Shown: in pieces, positions 1 to 15,713 of the stretch
Layout of the letters: each line of letters begins with the position of its first letter
Numbering within the stretch: the stretch's first letter is position 1
Assembly: GCA_032119875.1 (NCBI GenBank)
Contig: JAUMFK010000076.1
Location: 1-36,825 of the forward strand
DNA length: 36,825 nucleotides
Direction of reading: 5' to 3'
Source: Rickettsiales bacterium
GTDB taxonomy: Bacteria; Pseudomonadota; Alphaproteobacteria; Rickettsiales; UBA1997
Program-made: the position numbers and the translations under genes
Notes under the pieces: generated by a model
What the model saw: the letters and a program-made list of their open reading frames with translations, nothing else
The model's database searches: none
Told to the model about the DNA's origin: nothing

Positions 1-3000
1 GAGTTCCGCTATAGCCAGTGTCACAAGATGCTCCTGAAATTGATAGCGGAGTTGACCCTGTGTAGCTATAAGTAAAGCGACTTGGTAAAGTATAGCCAAC
101 AGTTGCGCTTGGAGCAGCACAAGTGTTAGTAGAGCATAAATTATCGTAAAGAGATGGGGGTGAGCCAAAGCTTGATTGCGTAGTGCATTTATATAATTTA
201 GAACCAGTAGAGCCAGTGGGGCAATTAACATTAACAATATTAGAATCATCTTGTGAAATAAATATAGAATCGATATTAGAACCATCATCTTTTTTACAAA
301 AAATACCTGGCTGATTGCAGTTAGTTGTAGCTATATTATAATTTAAATTATCAACTGGCAAGATACAATAATTACTGCTTATACAACGATTATTAGTGTA
401 TATAATACCACTCGCTTGATCACATGTAACTGATAGATCAGATGAAAAATCATTGCTATGAATAGTATAGCCAGAACGGCATTGCAATTGATAAAAAACA
501 TCTTGATGTCTCATTTTTTCAGAAGCTACCACTATATTAAATCCATCTGCAGAAGAAGAATAGGTGCAGGCTATACCACATAATTTATCTGGGCTAAAAG
601 GGTTCGAAGGATCGTTTCTATACCTTACATTACCAGAATCGCAAATAATTTCGTTTGCTGATCTTCTGTCACCTTCGCATGTGCCAGTGTGTGTTCCATC
701 ATGGGTTTCTAGAGATAATGAACAACCCAATATTTTTTCTCTACTACAAAAATTTGTAACTAACCCATTTCCACAGTTCTTGGGTCTGCAAGTCAAAGTA
801 TTAACATATTGTGGAGTACTTCCACTTCCATCACAAGATAATACACCTGAGGCAGGATCGTAGTTATTTTTACACTGCACTTCTGTTGCACTTCCTTCAT
901 AAAGTGTAACTTGTGTATTCGAAGAGCCAACAAGCATCATTTGAGTAGGTAAAGTATATGGGGAAGAAGAGCAAATTCTTCCTGTAGGAGCAGGAGCATA
1001 ACCAGAACGAATAATAGTAGCTACTCCTGTTTTTCTACATGTGCGACTATTATAGTCATAATTATCATAATTATCAGGGCATCCCCACATAATAATTTTT
1101 AAGTTTTTATCTACACCAGCAGCAAAACCCCCCTGACCATTATTACAATTTGTAGAGCCAGCTGCACCACCGTGTCCGTGTGAACTAGATTGTTGAGAAC
1201 AATTTTCATAAAGAATCTGATCGCCATCAACTGTTTTGTTACTATAAAAACCACGACAAGCAGAAGAAGTTTGTAATACTTTATAGCTATTATAACTACT
1301 ACATAAACTTGCAAAATAACTACTCCCTAGTAAACTTAAATTAACGGGAGAAGCAGATAATAAATTTATACCAGCAGCATAAGTTCTTTCACCGAATTTA
1401 CCTGACCCAAACCAGTCCCCGCTACAATTACAAACATTAGCAGCTCTTCTATCCACAATCATATCTCTATCAGCAAAATCAGGAAGTCTTCTGTTATCAT
1501 AATTATAGCTACCGCCCTTAAACAACGAAACAAGACTATCACACATAGACTCTTTACCCATAACACAGCCATCATCAACACCCTTCTTCCATTCTTTCTC
1601 AATTCTTAAATCGCCATACTGAAAAAACATTTCATAAACTACACCATTCGCAACAGAATGTTCATCTACTTGACTTCCTTTAGTTCTTGTAGATGTATAT
1701 CTAAATATTTGAGATTGTTCTTGTTTTTTACCAATAAAAGAGTTTGTTAAGCCCCATTTGCCATGCACTTGACAAATTGCAGAAGGATTCATCGGAGCAT
1801 TACCTTCTCTTTTTAATCCCCAGCAAAATACCGATGATGGTTTTCCATCTGTAATATAACCATAAGTAACATTAGAAGTAACGGTAGTAGATGTCCCTAT
1901 TTCATTGTTGCATTGCGATTGGGCAGAAACACTATCAGCATCGTCATAATTACCAATCGCTCTTTTTTCAAATAAATTAAACAGACCTGCAACATTACTT
2001 TGATAGCTCATATTATTTATAGCACCAAAAATTGCAAATTTTTTAATTTGTTTTGATTGATCAGCATAGACACCGTTATAAAAATTATAATTATCATGCA
2101 ATTCAAATTTTTTATATTTTTCATAAGGATCATCTGAAACAAAATAAGCTTTAGATATTGTAACTTTTGAATAGTTTTCGATTGAACCTGAACCATCAAA
2201 TCGCTTATCTATATTAGCACCAGATGACCCTTGTCTACCGATTCTTTGGATGATGCCAGAATTACATTTTTGAACACAACGACTGCTAGGATTTTCAGGA
2301 GATATTTTATAAGTATTTAGATAATTAGAAGAATTCTCACATCTATATCTTGGATTTGTGCCCCAGTAAGCAGAAGAACTAGAAGGGTTATTGCCAAAAT
2401 CTGGGTTATAAAAATTATAATATATCCAATTAGCAGGTGCTGGTGGTGTGCTATCAACATAATTATAATTACACATTGCATAAGCATAAATATTTTTTGA
2501 AGTAATATCTAATGAACTCACATCAAATTTATTATTAGAAACACCAAATCTATTATTAGAATCACCAATAATGCGATAATCTGGTATTACTGGAATTTGT
2601 ATGATACTGTCAATTGGTGCAGATGTTTCTTCGGCCAATCTATAAAAAGCATCACTAATTTTTGTCATATCATATAATGTACTCTGTTTTAATAAGCCTT
2701 GATCAAAACCAATAGGAAAATCAAAACTAGTGCTTCCTCTAATACTCTCAATTGTTGGCAAATGGTCGCTGCCTGGCTCAATATTGTTTGCTCTCACAAA
2801 GCCTAAAATAGAGTTAATATCATAGCCACCTTTTGCTGGACCAGCAATTGGGCAAAGCGAAATTGGATCTTGCCATTTACCACTTTCACCACACCTACGA
2901 TATAAAATAACAGAATCTTTCATACCATCTTTTTCGTAATGCAAAGCACTGAAAGGATCGGTCTCTACAGGAGGATTATTTAAAACGAGTTTATCTTGTA

Positions 3001-6000
3001 TAATTTTGTAAGTATTTCCAGATTTTTTAAGAATTAAAGTAACATCATGTTTATGCGGTAATTCTGGCCAAATAATATGTAAAGTAGCTTGGTTACCTGT
3101 TATATTAACAACTTTTACTGCGATTTTATCTCTGTTTAAAACAGCAGAAGATGATGAATTCTCAATATTTAAATAGCTATTTGCAGTTAAGTCACCAAGA
3201 CCAGTTGCATCAATTTTATGCTCGGTAATTGCCGAACCAATTCTGGAATCAAAGTTATTATCAGTAATAATTGCCTCAACATCTCCATCAGTAGCTACGG
3301 CTTGTGTTAAACCAGGGCAGGTATTTTGGCAAGCAGAATCTGGCAAACTCCACACATTACCAATACCATAGCGACAAGTTCGACTTGGAAGTGGGTAATT
3401 ATCCTGTGGATTAGATGCGGTTTTTGAAAGAAAATCGGTAGCATTTATTAACAAATAATAATCAATGCCAACTCCATTAGTTGCTTCATCAATGGCTCTT
3501 AAAATATATTTACCAGATAGCTCTTGATGATTAAAATCGGTAATTAAATTACCTTGACTGTTATATTTTTTAACTGGCTTTGCATTGTAATTTATCATAT
3601 AATTATCAGAAGGATTGCCAGAAGTAGGGCTTGGGCTTGGAGAAGAAAAAGTAATTTCAGTTTCTTGATTTTTTGTTAAAACAGGAGAACCAGAAGTAAG
3701 AATCATAGTGCAGTTGTAGTCTATTGAAGGTGAGCCACTAATATCGTTAGATTGCATGCAATTATTTATAGTAGCATTGATTACACCACCTGTCAGCACT
3801 CGCTTTAAACCATTATAAACACCAGAATTATTAATTTGTTGCCATTGCAAATGACCTGCAGAGTTTTTTACTAATTGTAGCACAAAATGATTACCCAAGG
3901 ATGCACCAGAAATATTGATATCATTTGTAGAATAAGGATTTTTGCTAAATTTTAAAACACTAGGATCAACATCAGAACTTAAATTAATTTCTACCACCTC
4001 ACCTTCAGAAATTTTATCAAGAACATTATCAAAAGGGCAAGCTGGGTAAGTACTATGGCCACATAAACAATTAACACGATTACCCCCTGAACAATCTGTT
4101 GTTGTAAAAATTTTTCTTTTATTTATGTTGTATTCTTGCCAACGATTATCATCTGTCATTTTTGCTGGTTGCACCAAAACCAACAAGTAATATCCGCTTT
4201 CTAGTTTTATTTGATATTTAACATTTGGCAAAATATCATAAGAAGCAAATTTTTCTTTAGCACCAAGAGAATCTTTTTTATATAAAGGATATGTGGTTGC
4301 GGTGTCCGATTTTTTCAAAAATACATTTTCTACAATATTTGCTTTATCAAATTCAACTATACATCCATCTAAAGAAGTGCATTCATCTGCATTATAAACA
4401 TCTGTACTTTTAGTAGAAGAAGCAACATCGTAAGAAACCGAATATGACACAATAGGATTACTGATAAATTCGAATTTAACACCTTCTAGGCTACGAAAAG
4501 GCGGGTATGGATATGGTTTTTTACCAGTAAAACAAGAAGGGGTAGATTTGCTAATATAAGAAAAAGGAATTTTAGTAGTAACTGGGCTACATCTATCGCC
4601 ACAAATTTTAATTTTATTTTCAGTTTCTGCCCATTGCGAATAACCATGAATTTCGGTATCAGCCATCGAAACATCAACCGCATCGCAAGTAGAAATGCAA
4701 GGCTCTTTAATTTTTAATATACCTTGGTAATTACACAACAATTCTGGATCAAAATTAGCAGCAATTATTCTGTAACCTAAAGAAACTAAACATTTACCTT
4801 CAATATCGTAATCATCATCATCTTGTTGCGGAGTGCCATCACTCGTTTTTTTGCCAGAAATTTGAGCATGCTCTATTGTTTTGTTTCGCATTGCAGGAAT
4901 TAATGTTCTTGTATCTTTTGTATCTGGTTGGAAACCAGCTATTTTGCTCCATACTTTTAAAAGCTTTTCATGCTCTATTGTAGATTTATTGCTTTTTGTA
5001 GTTATCAGAAGATCTGCATCATTGATTATAAAATTTAAAGATTGTTTTGTTATTTTAAAATACCAAGCATTAACTGGATCGTTACCATTAAACCTTCTTT
5101 TATCTGAATCTGATGCAATTGCACTAATATCGATATTGTAAACCGCAGTATCACCAATTTTAATTATATGTAATTCAGTAGCATCTTTACAAGGTGCTAA
5201 ATTATTAGTTTTTAAATAATAATATTTATTATCAATCGGTTCTAAATATAATGATGTTATTTGGGTATTTAACTCGGCAATAATAACTTGATTACCAGCA
5301 GATGTTGAGCCACATTTTTGTTTAATTAAACGAATTGGTGTTGATTTAATTGGTGTTATTGGTGTTGAATCTAAAAATTTATTTTCTAAATCAGTAATAG
5401 AACACTTAATTCTTTGGCAACTGTTTAATACTGTTTCACCGCGATTTCCAGAAAAAATGACCCCGTCATAATCTTTTAAAAATTCTTGACTTCCCCAATC
5501 GAATCGCCAATAACCAAATTGATTACATTGAGTAGAAGGTAAAGTGCCGCCAGTATTATGATAAACATTATTCACTGAACCCTCTTGATTTGGGCAAATA
5601 GCTGTAAGCATTTTAATAGAATCGGCAATTTGAGGTCTGGCACAAACAGAGTCATCAAACAAACCAGCATTTAATATAGCACCATCTTTAGCAAAACCAA
5701 CTAAACAAGCACTTTTATCATAAACCTCTTCTATAAAATCAGTTGTTTTTAAAAAAGGTTGCCAATAAGCCCAGCCTCTTCTTTTTATAACATCTAAACC
5801 AATACTATAAGCACTGTCATTACTGTATAAACCATTTCTATCTGCCTGATTTTCATAAACATCAGAAGAACTTGATTTTCCATATTCAATAGTAGGGCAA
5901 GAATATCGTTCGCAAGCAGAAGAAGGGGGAGTAGCTGGCAATGTTAAACTAGGAGTAGAAGCAAGATCAGAAGCAGTGCACTTATATCTTGGCGAATTAT

Positions 6001-9000
6001 CTATATTTTTATTTTTCCAAAAACCATTACAAACCCCATATATTCCTTGATCATCCACAAAAGCAACATCGAGTTCAGCATTAGCAGTTAGAGAATTTCC
6101 TCTAATAATTTGACCATCTTTTCTATCTTGGTGAGATATATCAACCCCATAATCTTGTGTATCAGTTTTAACAGAATATGTTGATGGGGCTTTGCTTATC
6201 AAGCTTTTATATTTAATGTTTCCTTGTTGAATCAAAGAGTTTCTGTCTAGATCATCCTCTACAAAGTTTCCATACTTTAAATTTTGCAAAGGATATAATT
6301 TTGCCTTACAAAATCTAACTAATTTAGGAGCATTAATAGCCCCTCCGCCAATTCCAACACATAAATTATTAATACCTGATATGATGTTGTCATCTGAAGC
6401 AACTACACCTATTTTATACTCATAAACTTCTGCAAAACGACAAGAAGCTGAAGTTGGGCAAGATTTATAATTATCTGTGCCTATCATTTTTCCTTTTAGC
6501 TTATAAGAAAGCCCTGTTACTTCTTTTTGTTCAACAAATTGCGGTGGTTGCACAATTAAATTCTCCACACCTTTTTTTAAACATATCATATTATTAAATC
6601 CCAAAGCATCTTTTGCAGAATTAGAAATACTAGATTCTAATCCAATTCTATTATTAAATTCTGGATGTAGAGTTTTAATTTCTGGATAGTTTTCAATATC
6701 ACCATGAGTATAACCATTAGTTTCATTACAAGAATTAAGTATTGTGTTTATGCAAAAATTTCTAACTTCTAACATTCTGTATAAATTTTGTTGTATATTT
6801 AATTTATCTTTTGGTTTTATAAAACTATTATAATTAACGTCGTTAATACTAGAATTTAATCTATCAAAATCTTTCTTTGTTTGCACAATTGATCGGTTGC
6901 ATATAAGCTCTTCAGTATTGCAAATTTTCTGAATTTCTCTTTCATTATCAACACAATCTAGGTTAAGAGTTGTGCAGTAATGCCTTGCAGACGATATTTG
7001 AATACCTTCAAAATAAATATGATCTTCTATGAAACCAAGATTTTTAGCATCATTTAAACCATCTGCAGTATCTTTTAATTGATATTTAGTAGCAACTGTT
7101 TGACCAGCAGTGAAAATTTTAAACATATCAGCAATATCAGTATAAGAAGAAACATCAGAATATTTATATTGAAACCGAACTTCATGATTTAAAAAAGCAT
7201 TAGAATCACCAGCAGAAACAGCAGTTTTAAAAAGCTTCATGTTATTAACCAACGGCTGTTGTCTTGCGAAACAAGCAATAACTTTTAAATCACCATCCTC
7301 TACCGTAGCGGGCAGATTGCCATTCATACTAGCTCGATACACACACAAAACAGGATTTTCACCTTGCTGTTCTTTTTTCACGAAAATTTGGGCATATAAT
7401 GTAGTATTGCTAGTAGAAGCATTTATTTGTTTAAGATTAGAAGCAATAACAACTCCATATGGTTTTGTATTGCCTCTACATTTATTAGATATAGTGTCAG
7501 CACCAGAAATTGTGTTAAGATTAGGGTTATGATGCTCTTTAAATGAAGAATCATCTCCAAATCTTGATGGTGCTGTTGTGGATACAGTATTTTTTGATTG
7601 ATTAACCCCATATGTATCGCTTTGTCCATTACTACTATTTAATTTGTCTATCAAATCATTTTCATTGGTGATGCCTGGTATTTCTTTTAACATAAATTTT
7701 AATCTTTCATTTCCAGTATCATCAAATTTATAAATGGTTTTTCCTTCGATAATTGTTGGCGGATCTTCAATGTTGTTACACTTTGTTAAAGAAGCATGCT
7801 TTTTAGGAATTTGTAAATAATAATATTTATCGCCATATCTTAAAACAATTTCTGGATCAGAAAAATTTAATTTATCAATATCACTAATTTCGGTGGCTTT
7901 TTTCCATGGATTAGTAGAAGATGTTGTTTTTAAAGCAAAAACCATCGGCTCTGGTGCAAATAAATTAGGAGCATTATCTGGAGTAGAAACAGCCGAAATT
8001 AGCGGAAAACCTACTCTTTTCTGCACTGGTACACAATCTGATTTTAACCAAACTTTTTCTTTTAAAAAGTTATTTGGCTGAAAATCTTTATTATACAAGG
8101 CTTCAGTAATTGAAGGTCTTGGGGATTGCACGATAAGGGTTGCAATAGATAATATAGGTATTGTGGGCCTCGTGGAAGAGGAAATCGATCCATCTTCTCT
8201 AAGAAATGTAGTATCATCAAAAGTAATACCATCGAACGAACAGTTATCTTTTTTATCTTTTCTTATTCCCACACCAAAATAACCACATAAAGAAAGATCG
8301 TCTGGAAACGAGGTGCTAAGCCACAGCCAAGTAGGGTCATTATCGTTACGATAGCCGTTAAACCCATAGTAAGGATTTTTTTTACCTCTTGACATTTGCA
8401 ACAAACCATATTTGTTATCAGGTCTTTCTTCTGCTGCCTTATTTCGTTCTTCTTGATGAGATTTAAAAATCTCATCTTCATCTAATGTAGGATCGATTCT
8501 TTTTATAGTTCTTATTCTAGTATCATGATCATATACCGTAGTAATTAAACCATCTTTTGCCTTCATTTTAGCAGGAAAAAGATTGCCTACATTTGTATCT
8601 CTTCTGTAATCATATCGAGTAGAATTTTCTGCAATACTTGGCACACTATAACCTAAAAATTCAATATTTGGATCATCAGAAATATTGCTAATAAATTTAA
8701 TTTTTCGCACCGTTCTCCACACCGTATGGTCTGGAAGACCTGGCATGCCACCAATACGAGTATTAAGATCGGCAAAAGTATTAAAACTACCTTCTGCAAA
8801 ACTACAATCTTTTTTGTTATTATCAAACACTCTGCCTCCATAACAAATTTTGGCACCATTTGGCAATTCAAAATAAGAAGCTTTATTCATATCTTCTTTA
8901 TGAAGATTGTAGGTATTTAAATCTATGCCATAAAAATCAAGTTCGGCACACACATAGCCTTGTTGATCATAAAAAGCTCTCACTCGATGATTAGTATAAT

Positions 9001-12000
9001 CCCAAGTTGCCCATATTGCACCACCAGGTATTAAACTTTTACCAAGCTTTTCAAGTCTCTCTAAATCTGGGTTGCTATATAATTTTGCACATTTTTCGTA
9101 ATCATCAGGTAATCGGCGGTAAGGGTATTCATGGTATTCATCAAGAAATTTGCCGATCTTCAGAGGATCGCTTTGAGGAAGCGATTTTAGTAGGTCATTA
9201 ACAAACCAAACAGATTGTTTTTTACCATCAATATCTGCAAGGGTTGATAACAAATGACATTTGCTATATGCAATACTGGTACCTGGATCTTCAACCATAA
9301 ATTTACGACACTGATCTTCGCCACATTGCATCATACCTGGAGGATTATCTATTCGACATTCTCTTCTACCACAAGCTCCCAGAGCATTTGTCGATTCGTA
9401 TCGTAAACAAATATTAACATAATACTCAAGTTTTTTTGTGGTGCTATTCCATTTTGTATCAGAAAATGCAAATCTTCGAGTATCGCTCATAACATTATTT
9501 GTTTTTAAACCAAATCTACCCCCTTGCACTAAAACAGGAGCAAAATAAGCAAAAGTGCTTTCATCTGGTAATCTTGTTGTATCACGATTCATTCCGCATA
9601 ACAATTTTCTATCAAATGAAGAGGTATATGTATAATCTCCATAAGGATTAATTCCCATAACAGTAGAGCCTCTTAAAGCTACAGCGCTAGGAGAAGCAAC
9701 TTTATTAATAGAATGCAAACCAACTCTATCAAGTATACCAGAATCTAAACCTTCTTTACTTGACACTAGATTATATTTTTCTTTTTCAGAATCATCGCCG
9801 TAATTACCATGGCCATAATAATAAATTGGCGGATATTGAAAAAAATCTAAATATTTACCTATACTGCTTTTATCATCATATCTAATTCCAATCACTGAAC
9901 TTTTAATAACCCTATTTAAATAACCTGATTTTGTAGAATCACTAGTGCCACGACTATTTGGAAAATCAACAGTAAAAGCCTTATAACATTTTTGATTACT
10001 TCCGCAATCTCTTACTGTTTGTGTTGCATCTAGGCCAGATGTATTTGGCTTTGGAAAAAAGAACCAGCTATAAAAAGGATCTTCATATTGATAATAACCC
10101 ATATCACTTGTTACTTCTTGCAAAGAGCCTTCTGGAGGAATGCCACTTGGAGGAACTACTTCATTTTCGATAATAGGATAATAAGCATCAGGAGGAGTTG
10201 ATTTTTTAAACAAACCAGCATAAAAATTTGGTTTATAACATATATAGCAAGAATTAGCAGGTTGGCAAATAGACTTCACAGAACTATCAAAATCAATAGC
10301 TAGACCTCCGCTCATTACATATCTAGCTTTGTCAGAATCGTTAATTGAAAAACAATAACAATCATAACAGCTGGTATTATTGCTATTTATAATTTTATAG
10401 CTTAAAGATGTTTTGCTATAATTAATTGTTGTTTTAGCACTTGGCACAAAAATAGTCAACAATAAAGGATCTGCATCGCATTTATTGATTATAGCACCTT
10501 TATTGGCATCAAATGCACCGCTAACATCTGTATTAGTAAAATTAGCATAATCGCTAAAACAATCTAGAGAACCCAGGCTATTTAATGCATAATTAACTAC
10601 ACATTTTTTAGGATTAGAACCAGTTCCAAGACAACCGATAGATCTATCATTTATGTTAGTATCGCTTATGCTTGTTATTGTTTTTTGGCCATTAAAAAAA
10701 ATGTCAAAATTTTTAAATTTATAATTACTCAATAAATAGCAAGCTTTTTTATAATGATCTAATCTACAAGAAAACTGGCTAGAATGATAACAAGCAAATT
10801 TACCAGATAACTCACTGCCACCAAGACCTGATATAGTTTGAGAAGCACCAGAAGAATCAGTATAAGTATAAGGATTAGTCGGAAACATATAATTTATTCT
10901 ATTTGCATAATAATTACATTGCTCATCAATACCAGATGGTGATGTAGCAAACACAGTAGCATCAAAAACCGAATGATTGATCTTGTTATAATCTGGAATG
11001 TTATCATCATTATTAAAACCTGCTGAAACTGCTGGACCAATAATGTTGTGATCTATTCGTTTGTGAATCAAAAAAGCTAAGTTTCCTTTAAAACAAGCTT
11101 TGGTAATATAATTTTTTAATTCATCAAGTTCTATTGAAGTTGCTTGTGAAGTTACTTGTTTAGTAGTTTTAGTAAGAGCTAAAATTTCAAGATCATTTAA
11201 AATATTACATTTAATATTGGCATCTTCATATTTGCTATATTGAGCAGGCAAACAATGAAAAAAAGCTTTCGCTTCTTGTAACTGCTCATCACTAAACATC
11301 GAACAACGAGTATCAACTTTACAAAAATATTCACCTTCACAAAAATTTTTACCAAGAGTGCTCGATTTTGTATCGGCTATACCATTTTTTCCACCTGTAG
11401 AATCTTTCCAAATTTGGTTTAAATCACAATTTCTAGTGCCAATAAATTTAAGCTCTTGTTTAGTAAGCAATGAACAGCTTGGTTTGTTAGTGGCATTATA
11501 ATAATTATCTAGAGTTTGTGTAATTTTATATTTAACCGCAGGCGAACCTACAAAAAAAGCTCCACTACCATCATTTCTTGTGGTGTTTCTAAAAGGTTTA
11601 ACTTTTAAAGAATTAGCATCAACTTCGTTAACACTATCATGATTTAAAGTATCGTTAAATAGAGCATCTTGCACCTGTATCATATCAACATTTTGAAGAT
11701 AATTATTCGCTGGAATTGAAAGGGCAGCTTGAGCGAGTTTAGAATAAGTATAAGGCTTACCGCAACCAATTGTAGATAATGAAGTATCGTTGCAATTTCT
11801 CGGTTCATAGTTAATAATTGGAATTGATTTAAGGTTTACAGAATTTGAAAGATCTTCATCGTATGTTGGTTTATCAGTTTTATTGATTTCTGCAACTCCT
11901 AAAATATATTCATTATCAACAAATACTGGTGAACCGCCAGCAACATTTTGCTTTACCATACCTAAACAACCAAACTTCTCTGCCACTTGTATAGTGCTTG

Positions 12001-13351
12001 CATTAAAGAAAGCACATAAAGGTAAATCGGCAGCATTCATACAATCTTTTCTAGGAATATGTGGATTAGCAATATTTTTTACATTTGCAGTTTCTTGAGA
12101 ATTAGAATTACTAGAAAAATTTGCTAATGGTGTATTATTACACACTGGCATTACATAACCTTGATGCTTTAAAAAACAAGTAACTCCAATATCTTTAGGT
12201 AGCAATTTATCAGGATCTCTAGAATCAACACCATATAAAACTGTTTTTGAGCCAGTTTCACAAGCAGGCAAGCAATTTATGCCCGGTAATTTTAAATTTA
12301 CATCATCAATACCATTAAAATCGGCACGATCATTACAATCTGCTAAACAATTTATACCCGGTCTGCGATAATATTCTTTTGAAATAGATAAACAAGAAGG
12401 AAGCCTGCAATTATCACCCAAAACTGGATCTTCTCTAGTTTTGTTATGACAATAATCATTAGCCGATGCAAAATCGAAATCACCCGAATTGATTTTAACT
12501 CTATAGGCATTGTCTATCTTAATTTTTAACATACAAGTATTGCCTATGTCTTGCAACCCTGCCCCAGCTTTGCAAGCTTGCAAGTTACTAGCTTTACCGT
12601 TATAATTTACAAAACCGCCAGCCACAGAGCCACTGCCAGTTTTGATTTCAGGATTTCCAGCAGTAGCTACTAACAACTCTCCTGTATAATTACTTGTTGA
12701 TAAACCTGTAAATTGATTATAAGGCGGTAAATAATTAATACGATAGTCGGTTAAAATGGTATTGCCCGATTTATATTCTTTAACTAAACGTATAATTTTT
12801 TCACCTGGTGATCTTCTATAAAAACTTTCTTGTTTTTTATTTTGAAAAGTAAAAACCTGTTCTTCTGTGCAGAACAAAGGAGATCTAGTGCAATCAGAAT
12901 GTTGATTTCTAAGTGAATTATCTGTGTTTATAGAGGCATCACAATAATATTGAAGATCGTTTTTTTCTGTACTAGTAGTTGCACAACGAAAATAATCGAC
13001 ACCATTTTGATAATAAAGCTTGGTTAATTTATAACCTAATCTATCGATATTTATTACTTCAGAAGCAATTGGAGATTCTAAAGTTGTAGTTGAATCAAAA
13101 GCAGTAGGAGGACTTAAAGGAAAAGCATCTTTTCTGGGATAAGAAGCATGTTTGTAAGGAGGATTAACATCAGATAAAACTTCTTTAAAATGAAACTGCC
13201 ACAGCAATAAAATAATGCAAAAAATAGCTACACAAAATAAAAATATTTTTTTGTTGCTAAATATTTTTTTTAACCATATAAAAAACAAACTATTAACAAA
13301 AGCAGAAAAAACTTTGATGATTGCTTGTTTATATTTGGTTAAAATTAGCAT
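1..13351 (-). CDS. Giant hypothetical surface or periplasmic protein, more than 4,450 aa, C-terminus beyond the left window edge. Membrane-anchored, cysteine-rich and rich in Asn/Ser/Thr/Gly/Tyr/Asp.
   Basis: Hand translation of the minus strand from the ATG at 13351-13349 found no stop in that frame down to nt 2. An in-frame TAA lies three codons upstream of this ATG. The ORF is absent from the track only because it has no stop inside the window. All six minus-strand track ORFs inside the interval share one other frame, and no alternative ORF there exceeds 99 aa. The N-terminus is MLILTKYKQAIIKVFSAFVNSLFFIWLKKIFSNKKIFLFCVAIFCIILLLWQFHF, a basic stretch followed by one TM helix. I counted about 145 Cys by hand. 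I saw no HExxH, RTX or P-loop motif. Confidence 0.9.
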   Translation of the reverse strand, partial: MLILTKYKQAIIKVFSAFVNSLFFIWLKKIFSNKKIFLFCVAIFCIILLLWQFHFKEVLSDVNPPYKHASYPRKDAFPLSPPTAFDSTTTLESPIASEVINIDRLGYKLTKLYYQNGVDYFRCATTSTEKNDLQYYCDASINTDNSLRNQHSDCTRSPLFCTEEQVFTFQNKKQESFYRRSPGEKIIRLVKEYKSGNTILTDYRINYLPPYNQFTGLSTSNYTGELLVATAGNPEIKTGSGSVAGGFVNYNGKASNLQACKAGAGLQDIGNTCMLKIKIDNAYRVKINSGDFDFASANDYCHNKTREDPVLGDNCRLPSCLSISKEYYRRPGINCLADCNDRADFNGIDDVNLKLPGINCLPACETGSKTVLYGVDSRDPDKLLPKDIGVTCFLKHQGYVMPVCNNTPLANFSSNSNSQETANVKNIANPHIPRKDCMNAADLPLCAFFNASTIQVAEKFGCLGMVKQNVAGGSPVFVDNEYILGVAEINKTDKPTYDEDLSNSVNLKSIPIINYEPRNCNDTSLSTIGCGKPYTYSKLAQAALSIPANNYLQNVDMIQVQDALFNDTLNHDSVNEVDANSLKVKPFRNTTRNDGSGAFFVGSPAVKYKITQTLDNYYNATNKPSCSLLTKQELKFIGTRNCDLNQIWKDSTGGKNGIADTKSSTLGKNFCEGEYFCKVDTRCSMFSDEQLQEAKAFFHCLPAQYSKYEDANIKCNILNDLEILALTKTTKQVTSQATSIELDELKNYITKACFKGNLAFLIHKRIDHNIIGPAVSAGFNNDDNIPDYNKINHSVFDATVFATSPSGIDEQCNYYANRINYMFPTNPYTYTDSSGASQTISGLGGSELSGKFACYHSSQFSCRLDHYKKACYLLSNYKFKNFDIFFNGQKTITSISDTNINDRSIGCLGTGSNPKKCVVNYALNSLGSLDCFSDYANFTNTDVSGAFDANKGAIINKCDADPLLLTIFVPSAKTTINYSKTSLSYKIINSNNTSCYDCYCFSINDSDKARYVMSGGLAIDFDSSVKSICQPANSCYICYKPNFYAGLFKKSTPPDAYYPIIENEVVPPSGIPPEGSLQEVTSDMGYYQYEDPFYSWFFFPKPNTSGLDATQTVRDCGSNQKCYKAFTVDFPNSRGTSDSTKSGYLNRVIKSSVIGIRYDDKSSIGKYLDFFQYPPIYYYGHGNYGDDSEKEKYNLVSSKEGLDSGILDRVGLHSINKVASPSAVALRGSTVMGINPYGDYTYTSSFDRKLLCGMNRDTTRLPDESTFAYFAPVLVQGGRFGLKTNNVMSDTRRFAFSDTKWNSTTKKLEYYVNICLRYESTNALGACGRRECRIDNPPGMMQCGEDQCRKFMVEDPGTSIAYSKCHLLSTLADIDGKKQSVWFVNDLLKSLPQSDPLKIGKFLDEYHEYPYRRLPDDYEKCAKLYSNPDLERLEKLGKSLIPGGAIWATWDYTNHRVRAFYDQQGYVCAELDFYGIDLNTYNLHKEDMNKASYFELPNGAKICYGGRVFDNNKKDCSFAEGSFNTFADLNTRIGGMPGLPDHTVWRTVRKIKFISNISDDPNIEFLGYSVPSIAENSTRYDYRRDTNVGNLFPAKMKAKDGLITTVYDHDTRIRTIKRIDPTLDEDEIFKSHQEERNKAAEERPDNKYGLLQMSRGKKNPYYGFNGYRNDNDPTWLWLSTSFPDDLSLCGYFGVGIRKDKKDNCSFDGITFDDTTFLREDGSISSSTRPTIPILSIATLIVQSPRPSITEALYNKDFQPNNFLKEKVWLKSDCVPVQKRVGFPLISAVSTPDNAPNLFAPEPMVFALKTTSSTNPWKKATEISDIDKLNFSDPEIVLRYGDKYYYLQIPKKHASLTKCNNIEDPPTIIEGKTIYKFDDTGNERLKFMLKEIPGITNENDLIDKLNSSNGQSDTYGVNQSKNTVSTTAPSRFGDDSSFKEHHNPNLNTISGADTISNKCRGNTKPYGVVIASNLKQINASTSNTTLYAQIFVKKEQQGENPVLCVYRASMNGNLPATVEDGDLKVIACFARQQPLVNNMKLFKTAVSAGDSNAFLNHEVRFQYKYSDVSSYTDIADMFKIFTAGQTVATKYQLKDTADGLNDAKNLGFIEDHIYFEGIQISSARHYCTTLNLDCVDNEREIQKICNTEELICNRSIVQTKKDFDRLNSSINDVNYNSFIKPKDKLNIQQNLYRMLEVRNFCINTILNSCNETNGYTHGDIENYPEIKTLHPEFNNRIGLESSISNSAKDALGFNNMICLKKGVENLIVQPPQFVEQKEVTGLSYKLKGKMIGTDNYKSCPTSASCRFAEVYEYKIGVVASDDNIISGINNLCVGIGGGAINAPKLVRFCKAKLYPLQNLKYGNFVEDDLDRNSLIQQGNIKYKSLISKAPSTYSVKTDTQDYGVDISHQDRKDGQIIRGNSLTANAELDVAFVDDQGIYGVCNGFWKNKNIDNSPRYKCTASDLASTPSLTLPATPPSSACERYSCPTIEYGKSSSSDVYENQADRNGLYSNDSAYSIGLDVIKRRGWAYWQPFLKTTDFIEEVYDKSACLVGFAKDGAILNAGLFDDSVCARPQIADSIKMLTAICPNQEGSVNNVYHNTGGTLPSTQCNQFGYWRFDWGSQEFLKDYDGVIFSGNRGETVLNSCQRIKCSITDLENKFLDSTPITPIKSTPIRLIKQKCGSTSAGNQVIIAELNTQITSLYLEPIDNKYYYLKTNNLAPCKDATELHIIKIGDTAVYNIDISAIASDSDKRRFNGNDPVNAWYFKITKQSLNFIINDADLLITTKSNKSTIEHEKLLKVWSKIAGFQPDTKDTRTLIPAMRNKTIEHAQISGKKTSDGTPQQDDDDYDIEGKCLVSLGYRIIAANFDPELLCNYQGILKIKEPCISTCDAVDVSMADTEIHGYSQWAETENKIKICGDRCSPVTTKIPFSYISKSTPSCFTGKKPYPYPPFRSLEGVKFEFISNPIVSYSVSYDVASSTKSTDVYNADECTSLDGCIVEFDKANIVENVFLKKSDTATTYPLYKKDSLGAKEKFASYDILPNVKYQIKLESGYYLLVLVQPAKMTDDNRWQEYNINKRKIFTTTDCSGGNRVNCLCGHSTYPACPFDNVLDKISEGEVVEINLSSDVDPSVLKFSKNPYSTNDINISGASLGNHFVLQLVKNSAGHLQWQQINNSGVYNGLKRVLTGGVINATINNCMQSNDISGSPSIDYNCTMILTSGSPVLTKNQETEITFSSPSPSPTSGNPSDNYMINYNAKPVKKYNSQGNLITDFNHQELSGKYILRAIDEATNGVGIDYYLLINATDFLSKTASNPQDNYPLPSRTCRYGIGNVWSLPDSACQNTCPGLTQAVATDGDVEAIITDNNFDSRIGSAITEHKIDATGLGDLTANSYLNIENSSSSAVLNRDKIAVKVVNITGNQATLHIIWPELPHKHDVTLILKKSGNTYKIIQDKLVLNNPPVETDPFSALHYEKDGMKDSVILYRRCGESGKWQDPISLCPIAGPAKGGYDINSILGFVRANNIEPGSDHLPTIESIRGSTSFDFPIGFDQGLLKQSTLYDMTKISDAFYRLAEETSAPIDSIIQIPVIPDYRIIGDSNNRFGVSNNKFDVSSLDITSKNIYAYAMCNYNYVDSTPPAPANWIYYNFYNPDFGNNPSSSSAYWGTNPRYRCENSSNYLNTYKISPENPSSRCVQKCNSGIIQRIGRQGSSGANIDKRFDGSGSIENYSKVTISKAYFVSDDPYEKYKKFELHDNYNFYNGVYADQSKQIKKFAIFGAINNMSYQSNVAGLFNLFEKRAIGNYDDADSVSAQSQCNNEIGTSTTVTSNVTYGYITDGKPSSVFCWGLKREGNAPMNPSAICQVHGKWGLTNSFIGKKQEQSQIFRYTSTRTKGSQVDEHSVANGVVYEMFFQYGDLRIEKEWKKGVDDGCVMGKESMCDSLVSLFKGGSYNYDNRRLPDFADRDMIVDRRAANVCNCSGDWFGSGKFGERTYAAGINLLSASPVNLSLLGSSYFASLCSSYNSYKVLQTSSACRGFYSNKTVDGDQILYENCSQQSSSHGHGGAAGSTNCNNGQGGFAAGVDKNLKIIMWGCPDNYDNYDYNSRTCRKTGVATIIRSGYAPAPTGRICSSSPYTLPTQMMLVGSSNTQVTLYEGSATEVQCKNNYDPASGVLSCDGSGSTPQYVNTLTCRPKNCGNGLVTNFCSREKILGCSLSLETHDGTHTGTCEGDRRSANEIICDSGNVRYRNDPSNPFSPDKLCGIACTYSSSADGFNIVVASEKMRHQDVFYQLQCRSGYTIHSNDFSSDLSVTCDQASGIIYTNNRCISSNYCILPVDNLNYNIATTNCNQPGIFCKKDDGSNIDSIFISQDDSNIVNVNCPTGSTGSKLYKCTTQSSFGSPPSLYDNLCSTNTCAAPSATVGYTLPSRFTYSYTGSTPLSISGASCDTGYSGT

Positions 13352-13379: not shown

Positions 13380-14771
13380 TCATTTTGCCACCTCAATAAC
13401 ATTAGCAACTAATTTGCAAAAATAATCACCGCGATGCTCAAAGTTTTGCCATTGATCTAGCGAAGCACAAGCTGGAGAAAGTAAAATATTTGCCAGCTCA
13501 TTATTATTTTGTTTAGCATCGGCATAAGCAGTATTAAAAGCAGTTTCAAGATTGTGGCAAATTACAAAATTTACTTTATGCTTTTGTAAAACCAAAGCAA
13601 AATCATAAGCAGATTCGCCAATTAAATAGGCTTTGTTAATTTTAGTAAAATATTCAACCAAGCTATCTATTCCGCCTTCTTTAGCTTTTCCGCCTAAAAT
13701 CCAAAAAATATTATTGTAGGCAGAAAGTGCATGTTTTGTAGAATCGGCATTAGTTGCCTTGCTATCGTTAATAAAGCAAATATTATTTTGTTTCGCCACA
13801 ATTTGTAAGCGATGCTTCAAGCCAGTGAACTGCAAAATAGCATTAATTATTGCTTCAATTATTTTGTTGTTTAATTGATGTTTAGTTAAAAAATAGCAAA
13901 ATAAATTTGCAAAAGCAACCACAATATTTTGCTCATTGTGTTTGCCTCTTAAAAACTCTGATTGCATTTTTTTACAATAACTATAACCCATAAAATTAAT
14001 CGATAAAATACCATCAACCAAGCTAATACCATTTTGCAAAACTTGATTATTTGAAACTGGCAATAATCTGCTTGCAAAATTCCAGTCAGCAATAATATTT
14101 GCATTAATTTTATTGTCAATACTTATTATTGCATAATCGCACGGTAATTGATTAGTAAAAATTCGTTTTTTTGAGGCAATATAATTTTGAAAACTTGAGT
14201 GTCTATCGAGATGATCAGGAGTAATATTTAATAAAGAGGCAATATGAAACCTAGTATATTTAATTAAATCGAGCTGAAAAGAAGAAATTTCAAAAATATA
14301 ATGATGATTTTGTTGTTGTTGCGGTAAAGAAAAACAAGAAAAACCTAAATTTCCACCCACCGAATAATTTATGTGCAGTTTTTCAAAAATAAAAGCCACC
14401 AAAGAAGTAGTGGTTGATTTACCATTTGTGCCAGTAATGCCGATAAATTGATTATAAAAATTATTTAACAAAAAAAACAATTCTATGTCGCCTAAAAGAT
14501 GTGAACCAAATCTTTGGCATAAATCAATAATTTTATGTTGTGTAGGATAATAAAGAGGAATACCCGGAGCAAAAACTACCGCTGTTTTGCTATCAAAAAT
14601 AAAATTATCAAGATTAGTTAAAAAATTAATTTTTGGATAAGCCGAAGCTAATTCTTCTATTTTTTGTGAGTTATCATCGATAGCAAAAACTAAACAATTA
14701 TTATCATTTAAATATTTGGCAGTTGCTAAACCAGATTTACCCAAGCCATAAACTAAATATTTATCAAACAT
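13380..14771 (-). CDS. murD: UDP-N-acetylmuramoylalanine--D-glutamate ligase
   Basis: 463-aa track ORF. It has the N-terminal GLGKSG motif and the Mur-ligase P-loop GITGTNGKSTT. The stop codon is TGA. Confidence 0.93.
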   Translation of the reverse strand: MFDKYLVYGLGKSGLATAKYLNDNNCLVFAIDDNSQKIEELASAYPKINFLTNLDNFIFDSKTAVVFAPGIPLYYPTQHKIIDLCQRFGSHLLGDIELFFLLNNFYNQFIGITGTNGKSTTTSLVAFIFEKLHINYSVGGNLGFSCFSLPQQQQNHHYIFEISSFQLDLIKYTRFHIASLLNITPDHLDRHSSFQNYIASKKRIFTNQLPCDYAIISIDNKINANIIADWNFASRLLPVSNNQVLQNGISLVDGILSINFMGYSYCKKMQSEFLRGKHNEQNIVVAFANLFCYFLTKHQLNNKIIEAIINAILQFTGLKHRLQIVAKQNNICFINDSKATNADSTKHALSAYNNIFWILGGKAKEGGIDSLVEYFTKINKAYLIGESAYDFALVLQKHKVNFVICHNLETAFNTAYADAKQNNNELANILLSPACASLDQWQNFEHRGDYFCKLVANVIEVAK

Positions 14772-14952: not shown

Positions 14953-15504
14953 TTATTTTACATCAGAAGCAATTCTTACTTTTAGCATTTTATCAGGATC
15001 AGAAACCTGACCATTATTAGCTGGATTGCCTTTTTTAATTTTATCAACAATCTCAATACCAGAAACAACTTTACCCCATACAGTATATTGACCATCAAGA
15101 AAATTAGAATCTTTGGTTACAATAAAAAATTGACTATTTGCACTATTTGGTGATTGAGCCCTTGCCATAGAAACAGCACCTCTAACATGAGGTTGTTTAG
15201 AAAATTCTGCTGTAAGATCGTTTAATTTACTACCGCCCATTCCAGTGCCGGTAGGATCGCCAGTTTGAACCATAAAACCATCGATAACTCTATGAAAAAC
15301 AATGCCATCATAAAATTTTTGACGAGTTAATGTTTTTATTCTTTCTACATGCTTTGGAGCGATATCTGGAAGCATTTCAATAACTACTCTACCATCTTTT
15401 AAATCAATATAAAGAGTGTTTTCTAAATTAGCTGCATTAACATTAGACATAAGAAAGAAAATTTGAGTTATTGTAAAAAATAATAATTTGATATTTTTAA
15501 ACAT
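14953..15504 (-). CDS. Cyclophilin-type peptidyl-prolyl cis-trans isomerase with signal peptide (periplasmic)
   Basis: Carries the FHRVIDGFMVQTGDPTGTGMGG cyclophilin motif. I chose the start at the internal Met (MFKNIKLLFFTITQIFFLMSNVNA/ANLE, signal-peptide-like) because the track ORF 14953-15717 reads through two tRNA genes. Confidence 0.85.
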   Translation of the reverse strand: MFKNIKLLFFTITQIFFLMSNVNAANLENTLYIDLKDGRVVIEMLPDIAPKHVERIKTLTRQKFYDGIVFHRVIDGFMVQTGDPTGTGMGGSKLNDLTAEFSKQPHVRGAVSMARAQSPNSANSQFFIVTKDSNFLDGQYTVWGKVVSGIEIVDKIKKGNPANNGQVSDPDKMLKVRIASDVK

Positions 15505-15533
15505 ATAATTAAAAAGTAAAATTATTTTAAAGG

Positions 15534-15619
15534 TGGTGGAGGGAGCAGGATTTGAACCTGCGAACGCTAACGCGGGCAGATTTACAGTCTGCTGCCATTG
15601 ACCACTCGGCCATCCCTCC
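15534..15619 (-). tRNA. tRNA-Tyr (anticodon GTA), CCA encoded
   Basis: The reverse complement is GGAGGGATGGCCGAGTGGTCAATGGCAGCAGACTGTAAATCTGC... Anticodon loop is CTGTAAA. It has a long variable arm, T-arm GCAGG-TTCAAAT-CCTGC and acceptor 3' strand TCCCTCC-A-CCA. Confidence 0.9.
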
Positions 15620-15639
15620 GCTAAAAAACAAAAAATAAA

Positions 15640-15713
15640 TGGAGCGGGTGAAGGGAATTGAACCCTCACGGCCAGCTTGGAAGGCTGGAACTCTACCATT
15701 GAGCTACACCCGC
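15640..15713 (-). tRNA. tRNA-Gly (anticodon TCC), CCA encoded
   Basis: The reverse complement is GCGGGTGTAGCTCAATGGTAGAGTTCCAGCCTTCCAAGCTGG... Anticodon stem is CCAGC/GCTGG with loop CTTCCAA. The T-loop is TTCAATT and the acceptor stem is GCGGGTG/CACCCGC. Confidence 0.9.

What the first reader, a model, noticed from the sequence alone, without database searches (positions are those of the whole stretch)
1..13351. A hidden 13.35-kb open reading frame encodes a cysteine-rich membrane-anchored protein of more than 4,450 aa with no recognisable domain
Seen in sequence:
- The interval that looks empty in the ORF track is one continuous minus-strand frame. I checked every codon from 13351 to 2 and found no TAA, TAG or TGA.
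- In the other five frames nothing longer than 99 aa stays open, as expected for AT-rich DNA, so this frame cannot be open by chance.
- The gene takes more than a third of the window and is still incomplete at its C-terminus.
- The product has a basic N-terminus plus a single TM helix (IFLFCVAIFCIILLLW). This predicts an N-in/C-out anchor with almost all of the protein outside the cytoplasm.
- The extracytoplasmic part has about 145 Cys (about 3%, several-fold above typical bacterial proteins). It is very rich in Asn/Ser/Thr/Gly/Tyr/Asp.
- It contains short Pro/Ser/Thr linkers, for example SSPSPSPTSGNPS near 3602-3660 and LPATPPSS near 5880-5940.
- It is largely non-repetitive by eye, unlike RTX, Big or cadherin-type giant adhesins.
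- I found no HExxH, P-loop, RTX nonapeptide, YD/RHS or autotransporter-like signature.

Inference: this is a disulfide-stabilised giant surface or periplasmic protein (adhesin, host or particle interaction, or envelope scaffold) of a family I cannot name. For a streamlined genome this is a very large investment.
Basis: partly seen in the sequence, partly recalled or inferred. Interest (0 to 1): 0.85.

Follow-up and report, generated by a model that had tools for sequence, protein, structure and literature searches.

The report
Giant cysteine-rich exported protein beside murD
The 13.35-kb open frame is a real gene for a huge, exported, cysteine-rich protein of an undescribed family that always sits right after the cell-wall gene murD in a group of uncultured aquatic bacteria; it evolves far faster than its neighbours and is most likely a cell-surface binding protein.

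Summary
Window 2..13351 (minus strand) is one stop-free frame of 4,450 codons (chance about 1e-158). It starts at a family-conserved ATG 28 nt after murD and is cut by the window edge; a 95%-identical homologue has 5,209 aa. Pfam, NCBIfam, PHROGs and PDB sequence searches find nothing in the window protein.

It is not an orphan. An exhaustive HMMER search of 1.84 billion representatives finds 71 relatives. All named ones are "hypothetical protein", from lake and marine MAGs labelled Rickettsiales or Proteobacteria. They share a collinear core of about 1,900 aa, an N-terminal Sec-type signal and 3-5% Cys. In all 11 main-family contexts examined the gene follows murD directly.

Against a sister genome the gene shows dN 0.27 and omega about 0.48, versus dN 0.02-0.06 and omega 0.06-0.16 for its neighbours. 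The C-terminus is hypervariable. Weak but convergent evidence points to sushi/CCP-like four-cysteine modules, plus SUEL lectin domains in a sister subfamily.

Best reading: a Sec-exported, disulfide-rich, modular adhesin-like surface protein. The route across the outer membrane and the reason for the murD pairing are unknown. I file it as a new family of a known kind, of moderate interest.

The parts
2..13351 (-). Giant ORF, 4,450 codons. It starts at the ATG at 13351-13349 and its C-terminus is cut by the window edge; the full length is about 5,200 aa, judged from the 95%-identical P0001.
13271..13324 (-). First, moderately hydrophobic stretch (aa 10-27, AIIKVFSAFVNSLFFIWL). Lys residues flank it on both sides. 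It is probably the h1 part of an extended signal region rather than a membrane span.
   Evidence: Sequence; hand Kyte-Doolittle estimate about 1.9; conserved in subfamily A
13199..13246 (-). Strong hydrophobic segment (aa 36-51), acting as a Sec signal h-region or signal anchor.
   Evidence: Kyte-Doolittle 3.5 over 15 aa. Relatives carry classical cleavable signal peptides at the same place.
12002..12604 (-). N-terminal cysteine-motif region (aa 250-450, repeated G-x-N-C-L...C motifs). This is the block best conserved with subfamily B, about 45% identity at its peak.
4322..7534 (-). Family core (aa 1940-3010), conserved in all 71 relatives and carrying the CNGFWKN, CNQFGYW and PYPYPP motifs.
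   Evidence: AF2 models of this region have low to moderate confidence.
5894..6046 (-). Sushi/CCP-like half-module (aa 2436-2486): C-N-G-F-W-K ... C ... C-x-R-Y-S-C-P.
   Evidence: family alignment. In the short forms the pattern is C..GFWK...P...C...G..W....C.RYSCP.
5399..5545 (-). Sushi/CCP-like half-module (aa 2603-2651): LP..QCNQFGYW ... C-Q-R-I-x-C.
4673..4804 (-). Sushi/CCP-like module end (aa 2850-2893). It is homologous to the stretch of P0028 that matches Pfam Ephrin_CRD above the gathering score.
2..994 (-). Start of the C-terminal array of four-cysteine (C-x-A-P ... S-C-x-x-G-Y-S-G ... Y-x-C ... G-C) modules (aa ~4120-4450). The array continues beyond the window.
   Evidence: A profile of these modules hits only CCP proteins at the top of the PDB list (CD55, E=0.002).
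2..2851 (-). Hypervariable C-terminal third (aa >3500): dN 0.36-0.64 and dS 0.9-1.4 against L001. One block (aa 4001-4250) is only 77% identical even to the 95%-identical strain.
3608..3646 (-). Pro/Ser/Thr linker SSPSPSPTSGNPS.
5918..5941 (-). Pro/Ser/Thr linker LPATPPSS, lying inside a CCP-like module loop.
13380..14771 (-). murD (UDP-N-acetylmuramoyl-L-alanine--D-glutamate ligase), 28 nt upstream on the same strand with no terminator-like site in between. It is the universal upstream partner of the family.
   Evidence: synteny

Best explanation
The frame is a functional gene, probably co-transcribed with murD. It encodes a protein of about 5,200 aa that the Sec system exports through an extended N-terminal signal or signal anchor. 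The protein would fold outside the cytoplasm with many disulfide bonds (146 Cys in the window part).

It has two parts:
- A collinear, mostly non-repetitive core of about 1,900 aa, shared with about 70 relatives and interspersed with sushi/CCP-like four-cysteine modules.
- Lineage-specific expansions. Here the main one is a C-terminal tandem array of CCP-like modules; in a sister subfamily there are CCP arrays plus SUEL-type lectin domains.

The most likely role is an extracytoplasmic, cell-surface binding protein, that is, an adhesin-like molecule contacting a eukaryotic host, prey or particle surface. On this reading the core is the stalk or anchor and the variable cysteine modules are the ligand-binding end. 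Fast, mosaic evolution would then reflect exposure to a changing partner.

Shown: the gene is real, the targeting signal, the Cys content, family membership, the synteny, and the evolutionary rates.
Inferred: disulfide folding, surface location, a binding function, and co-transcription with murD.
For: Real gene:
- Stop-free 4,450 codons, chance about 1e-158, with GC and GC3 like the neighbours.
- Intact collinear homologues of 4,141-5,209 aa in seven clusters.

Export:
- A K-rich n-region plus a strongly hydrophobic h-region in nearly all full-length family members.
- Classical AXA-type signal peptides in short forms and distant relatives.
- No other TM segment in the window's close homologue P0001 or in most members; three relatives show one weak internal hydrophobic window.

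Extracytoplasmic, binding-type modules:
- 3.0-5.4% Cys family-wide.
- Pfam Ephrin_CRD (a sushi-type module) above the gathering score in P0028, and SUEL lectin in P0021.
- A profile of the C-terminal repeats ranks CCP proteins first in the PDB: CD55 E=0.002, then CR1, MASP-1, VCP and factor H.
- Sub-threshold Sushi and HRM hits in short forms.
- Foldseek top ranks for the core model are beta2-glycoprotein I, the EphA2 CRD, CD46 and CFHR1, though none is significant.

Fast, mosaic evolution:
- Against L001 the neighbours are 85-96% identical (omega 0.06-0.16) while the giant protein is 64% identical (dN 0.267, dS 0.56, omega about 0.48).
- The C-terminal third is far more diverged.
- Against the 95%-identical strain, identity alternates between 99.6% blocks and 77-92% blocks.

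Core plus variable cassettes.
Against: - No experimental or sequence evidence places the protein on the surface. No outer-membrane anchor, autotransporter barrel, TPS domain, T1SS/RTX signal or neighbouring transporter was found (contexts).
- An inner-membrane-anchored periplasmic protein fits the same data.
- The sushi/CCP assignment rests on marginal E-values (0.002 to about 1). Pfam Sushi does not reach threshold on the window protein.
- AF2 models are low to moderate in confidence (mean pLDDT 51 and 60), and no Foldseek hit is significant.
- Omega below 1 everywhere does not separate diversifying selection from relaxed constraint.
- Strict pairing with murD across rearranged flanks is not what one expects of an ordinary adhesin gene and remains unexplained.
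- The host association of these bacteria is itself unverified; the taxonomic labels come only from record titles.
Confidence: 0.5

Rival explanations
1. Envelope scaffold. The protein stays anchored in the inner membrane or periplasm and acts as a lineage-specific structural partner of cell-wall synthesis or division. Its production is coupled to murD.
For: - murD lies immediately upstream in all 11 main-family contexts examined, while the outer flanks differ: PPIase/tRNA here, purM in L007 and L013, rpe in L009-L011.
- Start and stop overlap by 11-44 nt in L007, L009, L010, L011 and L013; L012 also overlaps.
- There is no terminator-like site between the two genes here.
- The ~1,900-aa core is collinear in every member.
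- The N-terminus has no clear cleavage site here, which is compatible with a membrane anchor.
- No outer-membrane export feature was found.
Against: - No peptidoglycan-binding or division domain is detected (LysM, SPOR, OmpA, SH3 and similar).
- The gene evolves 4-13 times faster in dN than its neighbours and has a hypervariable, module-shuffled end. That is unusual for a core envelope machine.
- Lectin and CCP-type modules suggest external ligands.
- Two more distant relatives (L005, L006) are not next to murD.
- The protein seems far too large for the periplasm; as beads on a string, 5,000 aa would be much longer than the periplasm is wide (my inference).
Confidence: 0.2
2. Defensive or identity coat. 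The protein is an abundant, variable surface layer whose variation helps the cell escape phages or grazers. This is what has been proposed for giant variable genes of planktonic bacteria. It would not be an adhesin for a host.
For: - The family comes from lake and marine plankton metagenomes.
- The genomic neighbourhoods carry full biosynthetic genes: his, pyr, pur, leu and heme. This fits cells that are not strictly intracellular.
- Variation between close strains is mosaic, and the C-terminal module number varies.
Against: - The gene sits at a fixed core locus, not in a flexible genomic island.
- dS in the first 3,500 aa is similar to the neighbours, which points to vertical descent.
- Lectin and CCP modules are binding modules. 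This rival overlaps heavily with the best explanation and cannot be separated from it with these tools.
Confidence: 0.17
3. Secreted toxin or effector delivered to another cell, for example Sec export followed by a second secretion step.
For: A VirB3 gene lies 3.5 kb from the homologue in L007. The protein is very large with an extended signal region.
Against: - No catalytic motif or toxin domain is present: no HExxH, P-loop or RHS/YD, and no Pfam, NCBIfam or PADLOC-type hint.
- There is no immunity-like small gene or dedicated transporter next to it in any context.
- The C-termini are not conserved.
Confidence: 0.06
4. Decayed pseudogene, assembly chimera or chance open frame.
For: None, apart from the fact that the window is a metagenome-type contig that ends inside the gene.
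Against: - Chance is about 1e-158.
- Intact collinear ORFs occur in independent assemblies from NCBI, ENA, JGI and Logan.
- Omega is below 1 along the whole length.
- About 1,150 residues are invariant among eight sequences, including most of the cysteines.
Confidence: 0.01

Closest known systems
Giant type-1-secreted RTX adhesins (LapA, SiiE, MpIBP type)
   Same: Multi-thousand-residue bacterial surface proteins with a stalk and distal ligand-binding (often lectin-like) modules. They are large investments for the cell, and the binding ends vary between strains.
   Different: Here there is an N-terminal Sec signal instead of a C-terminal T1SS signal. There are no RTX nonapeptides and no Big/cadherin-type tandem repeats in Pfam. 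Cys is 3.3%, whereas (from my own knowledge) T1SS substrates are usually Cys-poor. No T1SS genes lie nearby.
Two-partner-secretion exoproteins (FhaB/TpsA), reported in Deianiraea-clade Rickettsiales (PMC9352585, PMC10847448)
   Same: Sec-dependent, with an extended N-terminal signal region, more than 3,000 aa long, with an adhesion role, and present in aquatic Rickettsiales.
   Different: No TPS domain, haemagglutinin repeats or ESPR hit in Pfam. No TpsB/FhaC neighbour in any of the contexts. Cysteine-rich and non-beta-helical by sequence.
Eukaryotic sushi/CCP (SCR) module proteins (CD55, CR1, factor H, beta2-glycoprotein I) and the Eph-receptor cysteine-rich domain
   Same: Modules of 52-76 aa with four invariant Cys, a C-x-x-G-[YF] motif after the second Cys, G-x-W before the fourth Cys in the core modules, and 3-4-residue linkers between modules in tandem arrays. 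These are the top PDB sequence hits and top Foldseek ranks. Pfam Ephrin_CRD is above threshold in the relative P0028.
   Different: The protein is bacterial, and the matches are marginal: E 0.002-4, with Pfam Sushi below threshold. The Trp is mostly missing in the C-terminal array. Several core modules carry insertions of 100-170 aa. Most of the protein is not CCP-like at all.
Rickettsial Sca autotransporter surface antigens
   Same: Large, fast-evolving surface proteins of Rickettsiales that are used for host contact.
   Different: No autotransporter beta-barrel or passenger repeats, and no sequence similarity.
'Giant genes' of free-living planktonic bacteria (general class; my own knowledge, not tested)
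   Same: Genes of more than 10 kb for exported, variable, poorly annotated surface proteins in small AT-rich genomes.
   Different: Those usually lie in flexible islands and are highly repetitive. This one is at a fixed locus bound to murD and has a long non-repetitive conserved core.

Membership tests
Sushi/CCP (SCR) module superfamily (Pfam PF00084 and relatives) | A module of about 60 aa with four conserved Cys (bonded 1-3 and 2-4) and a C-x-x-G-[YF] motif after Cys2. | tested here: met
   An alignment of 20 units from P0001, P0021 and the window end has four invariant Cys and a nearly invariant G after Cys2. The core modules show the same pattern family-wide. Disulfide connectivity was not tested.
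Sushi/CCP (SCR) module superfamily (Pfam PF00084 and relatives) | A significant match to a curated family model. | tested here: inconclusive
   The window protein has no Pfam hit, and neither does the P0001 C-terminus. The relative P0028 hits Ephrin_CRD at 28.9 bits against a cut-off of 27. P0045 hits Sushi at E=0.08 and P0050 hits HRM at E=0.035, both below cut-off. The repeat profile against the PDB gives CD55 at E=0.002 with CCP proteins filling the top ranks. The core-module profile gives only CCP proteins, but at E 0.4-4.
Sushi/CCP (SCR) module superfamily (Pfam PF00084 and relatives) | A beta-sandwich CCP fold. | tested here: inconclusive
   AF2 mean pLDDT was 51 and 60. The Foldseek top ranks are CCP and Eph-CRD structures, but E>=0.97.
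T1SS RTX giant adhesins | C-terminal GGxGxDxUx nonapeptide repeats and a T1SS signal, with no Sec signal. | tested here: not met
   There are no RTX motifs in the window protein or in full-length P0001. An N-terminal Sec-type signal is present.
Type V secretion (autotransporter / TpsA) | A C-terminal beta-barrel domain, or an N-terminal TPS domain with an adjacent TpsB. | tested here: not met
   There is no Pfam hit. The C-termini are variable and Cys-rich. No TpsB-like neighbour appears in the contexts.
RHS/YD-repeat toxins | Multiple YD repeats and an RHS core. | tested here: not met
   A single chance G..Y.YD match and no Pfam or NCBIfam hit.
SUEL-type (D-galactoside/L-rhamnose-binding) lectin domain proteins | A PF02140 domain. 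| tested here: not met
   The domain is absent from the window protein. It is present in subfamily B relatives: P0021 at E=1.8e-7 and 31.9 bits against a cut-off of 31.4.
The new murD-linked giant protein family defined here | A collinear core with the motifs CNGFWK, CNQ.G.W and PYPYPP; an N-terminal signal; at least 3% Cys; and murD immediately upstream. | tested here: met
   with the synteny.

The most novel reading that the evidence does not exclude
The family is a lineage-defining envelope or attachment apparatus of a group of aquatic, metabolically fairly complete, Rickettsiales-labelled bacteria. A single conserved ~1,900-aa core is made in step with peptidoglycan precursor synthesis, being translationally coupled to murD. 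It carries exchangeable eukaryote-type modules (CCP, lectin) that mediate epibiotic attachment to protist or algal cells. On this reading it would be a molecular handle on how host association arose in this lineage. It would also have to cross the outer membrane by a route unlike any described giant-adhesin pathway.
Probability: 0.15. Interest if true: 0.8.

Novelty: new variant of a known kind. Interest (0 to 1): 0.55.

Why it matters
If the best reading is right, this is a new family of giant bacterial surface proteins. It is built on a long non-repetitive cysteine-rich core rather than on tandem Ig-like or beta-helical repeats, is exported by Sec, and has no recognisable outer-membrane route.

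It is confined to uncultured aquatic alphaproteobacteria that public records label Rickettsiales and that keep many biosynthetic pathways. It would therefore be an obvious candidate for the molecule that contacts a host or particle in lineages near the origin of host association.

The invariant pairing with murD through several genome rearrangements is an unexplained regularity. It gives a concrete, testable link between cell-wall precursor synthesis and a surface giant.

At a practical level, the family (about 70 clusters at 50% identity, all 'hypothetical protein') could be given a profile model so that these 6-15-kb genes stop being left unannotated or split in MAGs.

Tried and rejected
Domain and sequence libraries:
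- Pfam, NCBIfam and PHROGs on the whole protein and on ten 480-aa pieces found nothing credible.
- PDB sequence searches with the full-length profile (A1) and the short-form profile (A9) found nothing: and (only a chance E=0.6 hit).

Structure:
- AF2 on aa 1940-3010 with 25 sequences gave pLDDT 51, and Foldseek against the PDB gave no hit below E=0.2.
- AF2 on aa 2180-2990 with 38 sequences gave pLDDT 60. Foldseek against the PDB and BFVD gave no significant hit.

Alignment and submission problems:
- An alignment without a subfamily-A anchor (A9) stretched the query fragment across the long rows, so I discarded it for structure prediction.

Literature: four searches and two targeted readings of the Rickettsiales evolution papers found no description of the family.

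Hypotheses rejected:
- Chance ORF or pseudogene.
- RTX, T1SS, autotransporter, TPS or RHS membership.
- Recent horizontal acquisition. GC and GC3 match the neighbours, and dS in the first 3,500 aa matches theirs.

The promoter scan is uninformative in this AT-rich DNA.
Full report
**1. The observation**

The minus-strand frame from 13351 to 2 contains 4,450 sense codons and no stop under any bacterial code tested. An in-frame TAA lies three codons upstream of the ATG at 13351. The MLxLTKY N-terminus is invariant in all close homologues. The annotated start is therefore very likely the true one.

The other five frames hold no ORF of 100 aa or more. Their longest stop-to-stop run is 114 aa. With the local base composition, a frame this long is open by chance with probability about 1e-158.

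- 146 Cys (3.28%), and high S, N, D, G, T and Y.
- The hydrophobic stretch at aa 36-51.
- The two Pro/Ser/Thr linkers at the stated coordinates.
- No HExxH, P-loop or RTX motif.

GC (32.6%) and GC3 (17.5%) match the flanking housekeeping genes.

Two details need correction:
- A second, weaker hydrophobic stretch at aa 10-27 precedes the strong one.
- The last ~330 aa of the window open a tandem array of four-cysteine modules, so the protein is not entirely non-repetitive.

**2. It is a real gene and part of a family**

A word-indexed search of 5.8 billion proteins returned seven clusters. One is 95% identical and complete at 5,209 aa, so about 760 aa are missing beyond the window edge. Six are 48-59% identical and 4,141-5,000 aa long. 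All are collinear over the whole query. About 1,150 residues are invariant among the eight sequences, including most of the cysteines.

A profile search added P0021. Searching with P0021 opened a second subfamily of 17 further giants of 2,332-4,920 aa.

An exhaustive HMMER search was run with a profile of aa 1940-3010 against 1.84 billion representatives. It found only 71 proteins at E<=1e-3, most of them 'short forms' of 1,800-2,100 aa. Every source name recovered is 'hypothetical protein'. The organisms are MAGs labelled Rickettsiales bacterium, Proteobacteria bacterium and the like, from lakes (Mendota among them) and the sea. I could not verify the taxonomy independently.

Context fits a small-genome alphaproteobacterium that is less reduced than classical Rickettsia:
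- A VirB3 gene lies near one homologue, on a 1.52-Mb contig.
- The neighbourhoods carry his, pyr, pur, leu and heme biosynthesis genes.

**3. Anatomy**

*Targeting.* Nearly all full-length members begin with a Lys-rich stretch and a hydrophobic h-region. Many short forms and two distant relatives have textbook cleavable signal peptides. There is no other TM segment in the window's close homologue P0001 or in most members; three relatives show one weak internal hydrophobic window. Cys is 3.0-5.4% throughout the family. In the window's subfamily the signal is extended (n1-h1-n2-h2), with four Lys between the two hydrophobic stretches. By the positive-inside rule this keeps the loop cytoplasmic and puts the bulk of the protein outside; this is my inference. 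Whether the signal is cleaved cannot be decided here.

*Shared blocks.* The giant and short forms are collinear. The shared blocks, in window aa numbering, are roughly:
- 250-450
- 1250-1350
- 1450-1560
- 1750-1850
- 1950-2350
- 2400-3000
- 3330-3510

*Variable material.* It sits between or after these blocks. In the window's subfamily the main expansion is a C-terminal array of 52-76-aa units. Each unit reads C-x-A-P ... S-C-x-x-G-Y-S-G ... Y-x-C ... G-C, with a 3-4-residue linker. In subfamily B a similar array, two SUEL lectin domains and Gly-rich segments are inserted in the middle of the core.

**4. What the modules are**

No curated model matches the window protein. Five independent weak signals nevertheless point the same way:
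- The relative P0028 matches Pfam Ephrin_CRD, a sushi-type module, above the gathering score. The matching stretch is homologous to window aa ~2850-2890.
- A profile of 20 C-terminal units ranks CD55, a poxvirus SCR protein, CR1, MASP-1, VCP and factor H first in the PDB. The best E is 0.002.
- Short forms give sub-threshold Sushi and HRM hits.
- A profile of the core module hits only CCP-containing chains, at E 0.4-4.
- The second AF2 model (mean pLDDT 60) has beta2-glycoprotein I, the EphA2/EphB2 cysteine-rich domains, CD46 and CFHR1 as its top Foldseek ranks. None is significant.

The family-wide pattern C..G[FY]...P...C...G.W....C...C-P is the classic second half of a CCP module; that recognition comes from my own knowledge.

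I conclude that sushi/CCP-like modules are probably present, with moderate confidence. The large domains between them remain unassigned. The first AF2 model was confident only for aa ~1990-2240, a beta-sandwich plus a helical bundle, and found no structural neighbour.

**5. Genomic context**

In the window, murD ends 28 nt before the giant gene's ATG, on the same strand, with no terminator-like site between them. The same arrangement holds in all 11 main-family contexts examined: the window, L001, L003, L004, L007, L008, L009, L010, L011, L012 and L013. In L007, L009, L010, L011 and L013 the two genes overlap by 11-44 nt, and in L012 they also overlap.

The outer flanks differ between lineages:
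- PPIase and tRNA genes upstream here.
- purM upstream in L007 and L013.
- NDUFA12-mlaD-DUF2155-rpe upstream in L009-L011.
- purE downstream in five contexts, but not in the window's genus.

The pair has therefore survived several rearrangements. Two more distant relatives (L005, L006) are not next to murD.

I take this as good evidence for co-expression with murD. It is not evidence for a shared biochemical function.

**6. Evolutionary rate**

The comparison is with the sister-genome locus L001.

| Measure | Six flanking genes | Giant gene |
|---|---|---|
| Protein identity | 85-96% | 64% |
| dN | 0.02-0.06 | 0.267 |
| dS | 0.31-0.43 | 0.56 |
| omega | 0.06-0.16 | about 0.48 |

In the first ~3,500 aa, dS (0.37-0.57) is close to that of the neighbours. 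The gene has therefore diverged in place rather than arriving by transfer. Beyond aa 3500, dN rises to 0.36-0.64 and dS to 0.9-1.4.

Against the 95%-identical strain, identity alternates between 99.6% blocks and blocks of 77-92%. That is a mosaic pattern suggestive of recombination or local hypervariability.

This is the signature expected of an exposed interaction surface. Relaxed constraint cannot be excluded, because omega is below 1 everywhere.

**7. Mechanism proposed**

*Shown:*
- An intact gene.
- A Sec-type signal.
- High Cys content.
- A conserved core with variable cysteine-module cassettes.
- Linkage to murD.
- Fast, mosaic evolution.

*Inferred:*
- The gene is transcribed with murD.
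- The product is exported by Sec and oxidised by the periplasmic Dsb system.
- It ends up outside the cytoplasm as a long modular molecule.
- Its variable CCP-like end (and, in relatives, its lectin domains) binds a partner surface, most likely a eukaryotic cell or particle.

I give this adhesin-like reading about 0.5.

*Main rivals:*
- A periplasmic or inner-membrane envelope scaffold tied to wall synthesis (0.2). It is favoured by the murD pairing and by the absence of any outer-membrane export feature. It is disfavoured by the rate, the size and the module types.
- A variable protective or identity coat (0.17). This overlaps with the best reading.
- A secreted toxin or effector (0.06).
- An artefact or pseudogene (0.01, effectively refuted).

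**8. Comparison with what is known**

In function the protein resembles giant adhesins (RTX/T1SS adhesins, FhaB-type TpsA proteins, rickettsial Sca proteins). It fails each membership test:
- There is no RTX motif or T1SS signal.
- There is no TPS domain or TpsB neighbour.
- There is no autotransporter barrel.
- There are no Ig-like tandem repeats.

The evidence is and the context calls.

Its modules resemble eukaryotic CCP/sushi and Eph-CRD modules, but only marginally by statistics. Full-text searches, and targeted reading of the two recent Rickettsiales evolution papers, found no mention of such a protein.

**9. Verdict**

- The protein belongs to an undescribed, narrowly distributed family of large to giant exported cysteine-rich proteins.
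- I class it as a new variant of a known kind: giant bacterial surface or binding proteins.
- Interest is moderate (0.55). Giant unannotated exported proteins are not rare in MAGs. The conserved non-repetitive core, the eukaryote-type modules, the missing export route and the invariant murD pairing make this family worth following up.

Noticed in passing
window 33797-34831 (+): The hemE (uroporphyrinogen decarboxylase) gene has much lower GC (24.8%) and GC3 (9.3%) than the other genes measured in the window (GC 29-37%, GC3 16-30%).
   Followed up: no
window 14953-15717 (-), tRNAs at 15534-15619 and 15640-15713 (-): The longest ORF for the cyclophilin-type PPIase (254 aa, TTG start) runs over tRNA-Tyr and tRNA-Gly on the same strand. 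The family match begins only at residue ~72-107, so the real start must be an internal codon downstream of the tRNAs.
   Followed up: partly
window 20877-21953 (+); also L008 1290-2273 and L012 13556-14521: A homologue of the 'mitochondrial fission ELM1' family (PF06258, E=3.6e-52) sits right after coaD and overlaps it. The coaD-ELM1-like pair recurs in related loci. In L012 it lies directly downstream of the giant gene.
   Followed up: no
P0001 aa ~5060-5180 (beyond the window edge): By eye, the extreme C-terminus of the full-length homologue (…IIWAHFEYGG…NNTFGDPDLWCYKTARITIKEC…) resembles the YGR…FGDPC…K.L.V.Y.C signature of SUEL-type lectins. Pfam reported nothing for this segment at E<=1.
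   Followed up: partly
P0021 aa ~2040-2230 and ~3300-3370 (subfamily B): Runs of Gly (GGGGGGG) with the surrounding conserved sequence occur twice, each next to a SUEL-lectin-like segment. This suggests a duplicated lectin plus Gly-rich cassette inserted in the family core.
   Followed up: no
L012 nt 798-4000: The homologue P0040 (called as 3,025 aa without a signal peptide) is really about 4,090 aa. Its first 1,063 codons, with a signal peptide and overlapping the end of murD, are separated from the rest by a 100-N scaffold gap. Gene callers therefore split this family at assembly gaps.
   Followed up: yes
L001 record title: A Lake Mendota MAG that carries the 59%-identical homologue and near-identical housekeeping genes is deposited under the name 'Rickettsia typhi'. 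Given its lake origin and gene content this looks like a taxonomy-mapping error. Related records are labelled 'uncultured Rhizobium sp.' and 'Chitinophagia bacterium'.
   Followed up: no
window 16002-16373 (+); L008 6952-7344: A conserved small ORF (123-130 aa) with no Pfam or NCBIfam match lies between the tRNA cluster and plsC in both the window and the related locus.
   Followed up: no
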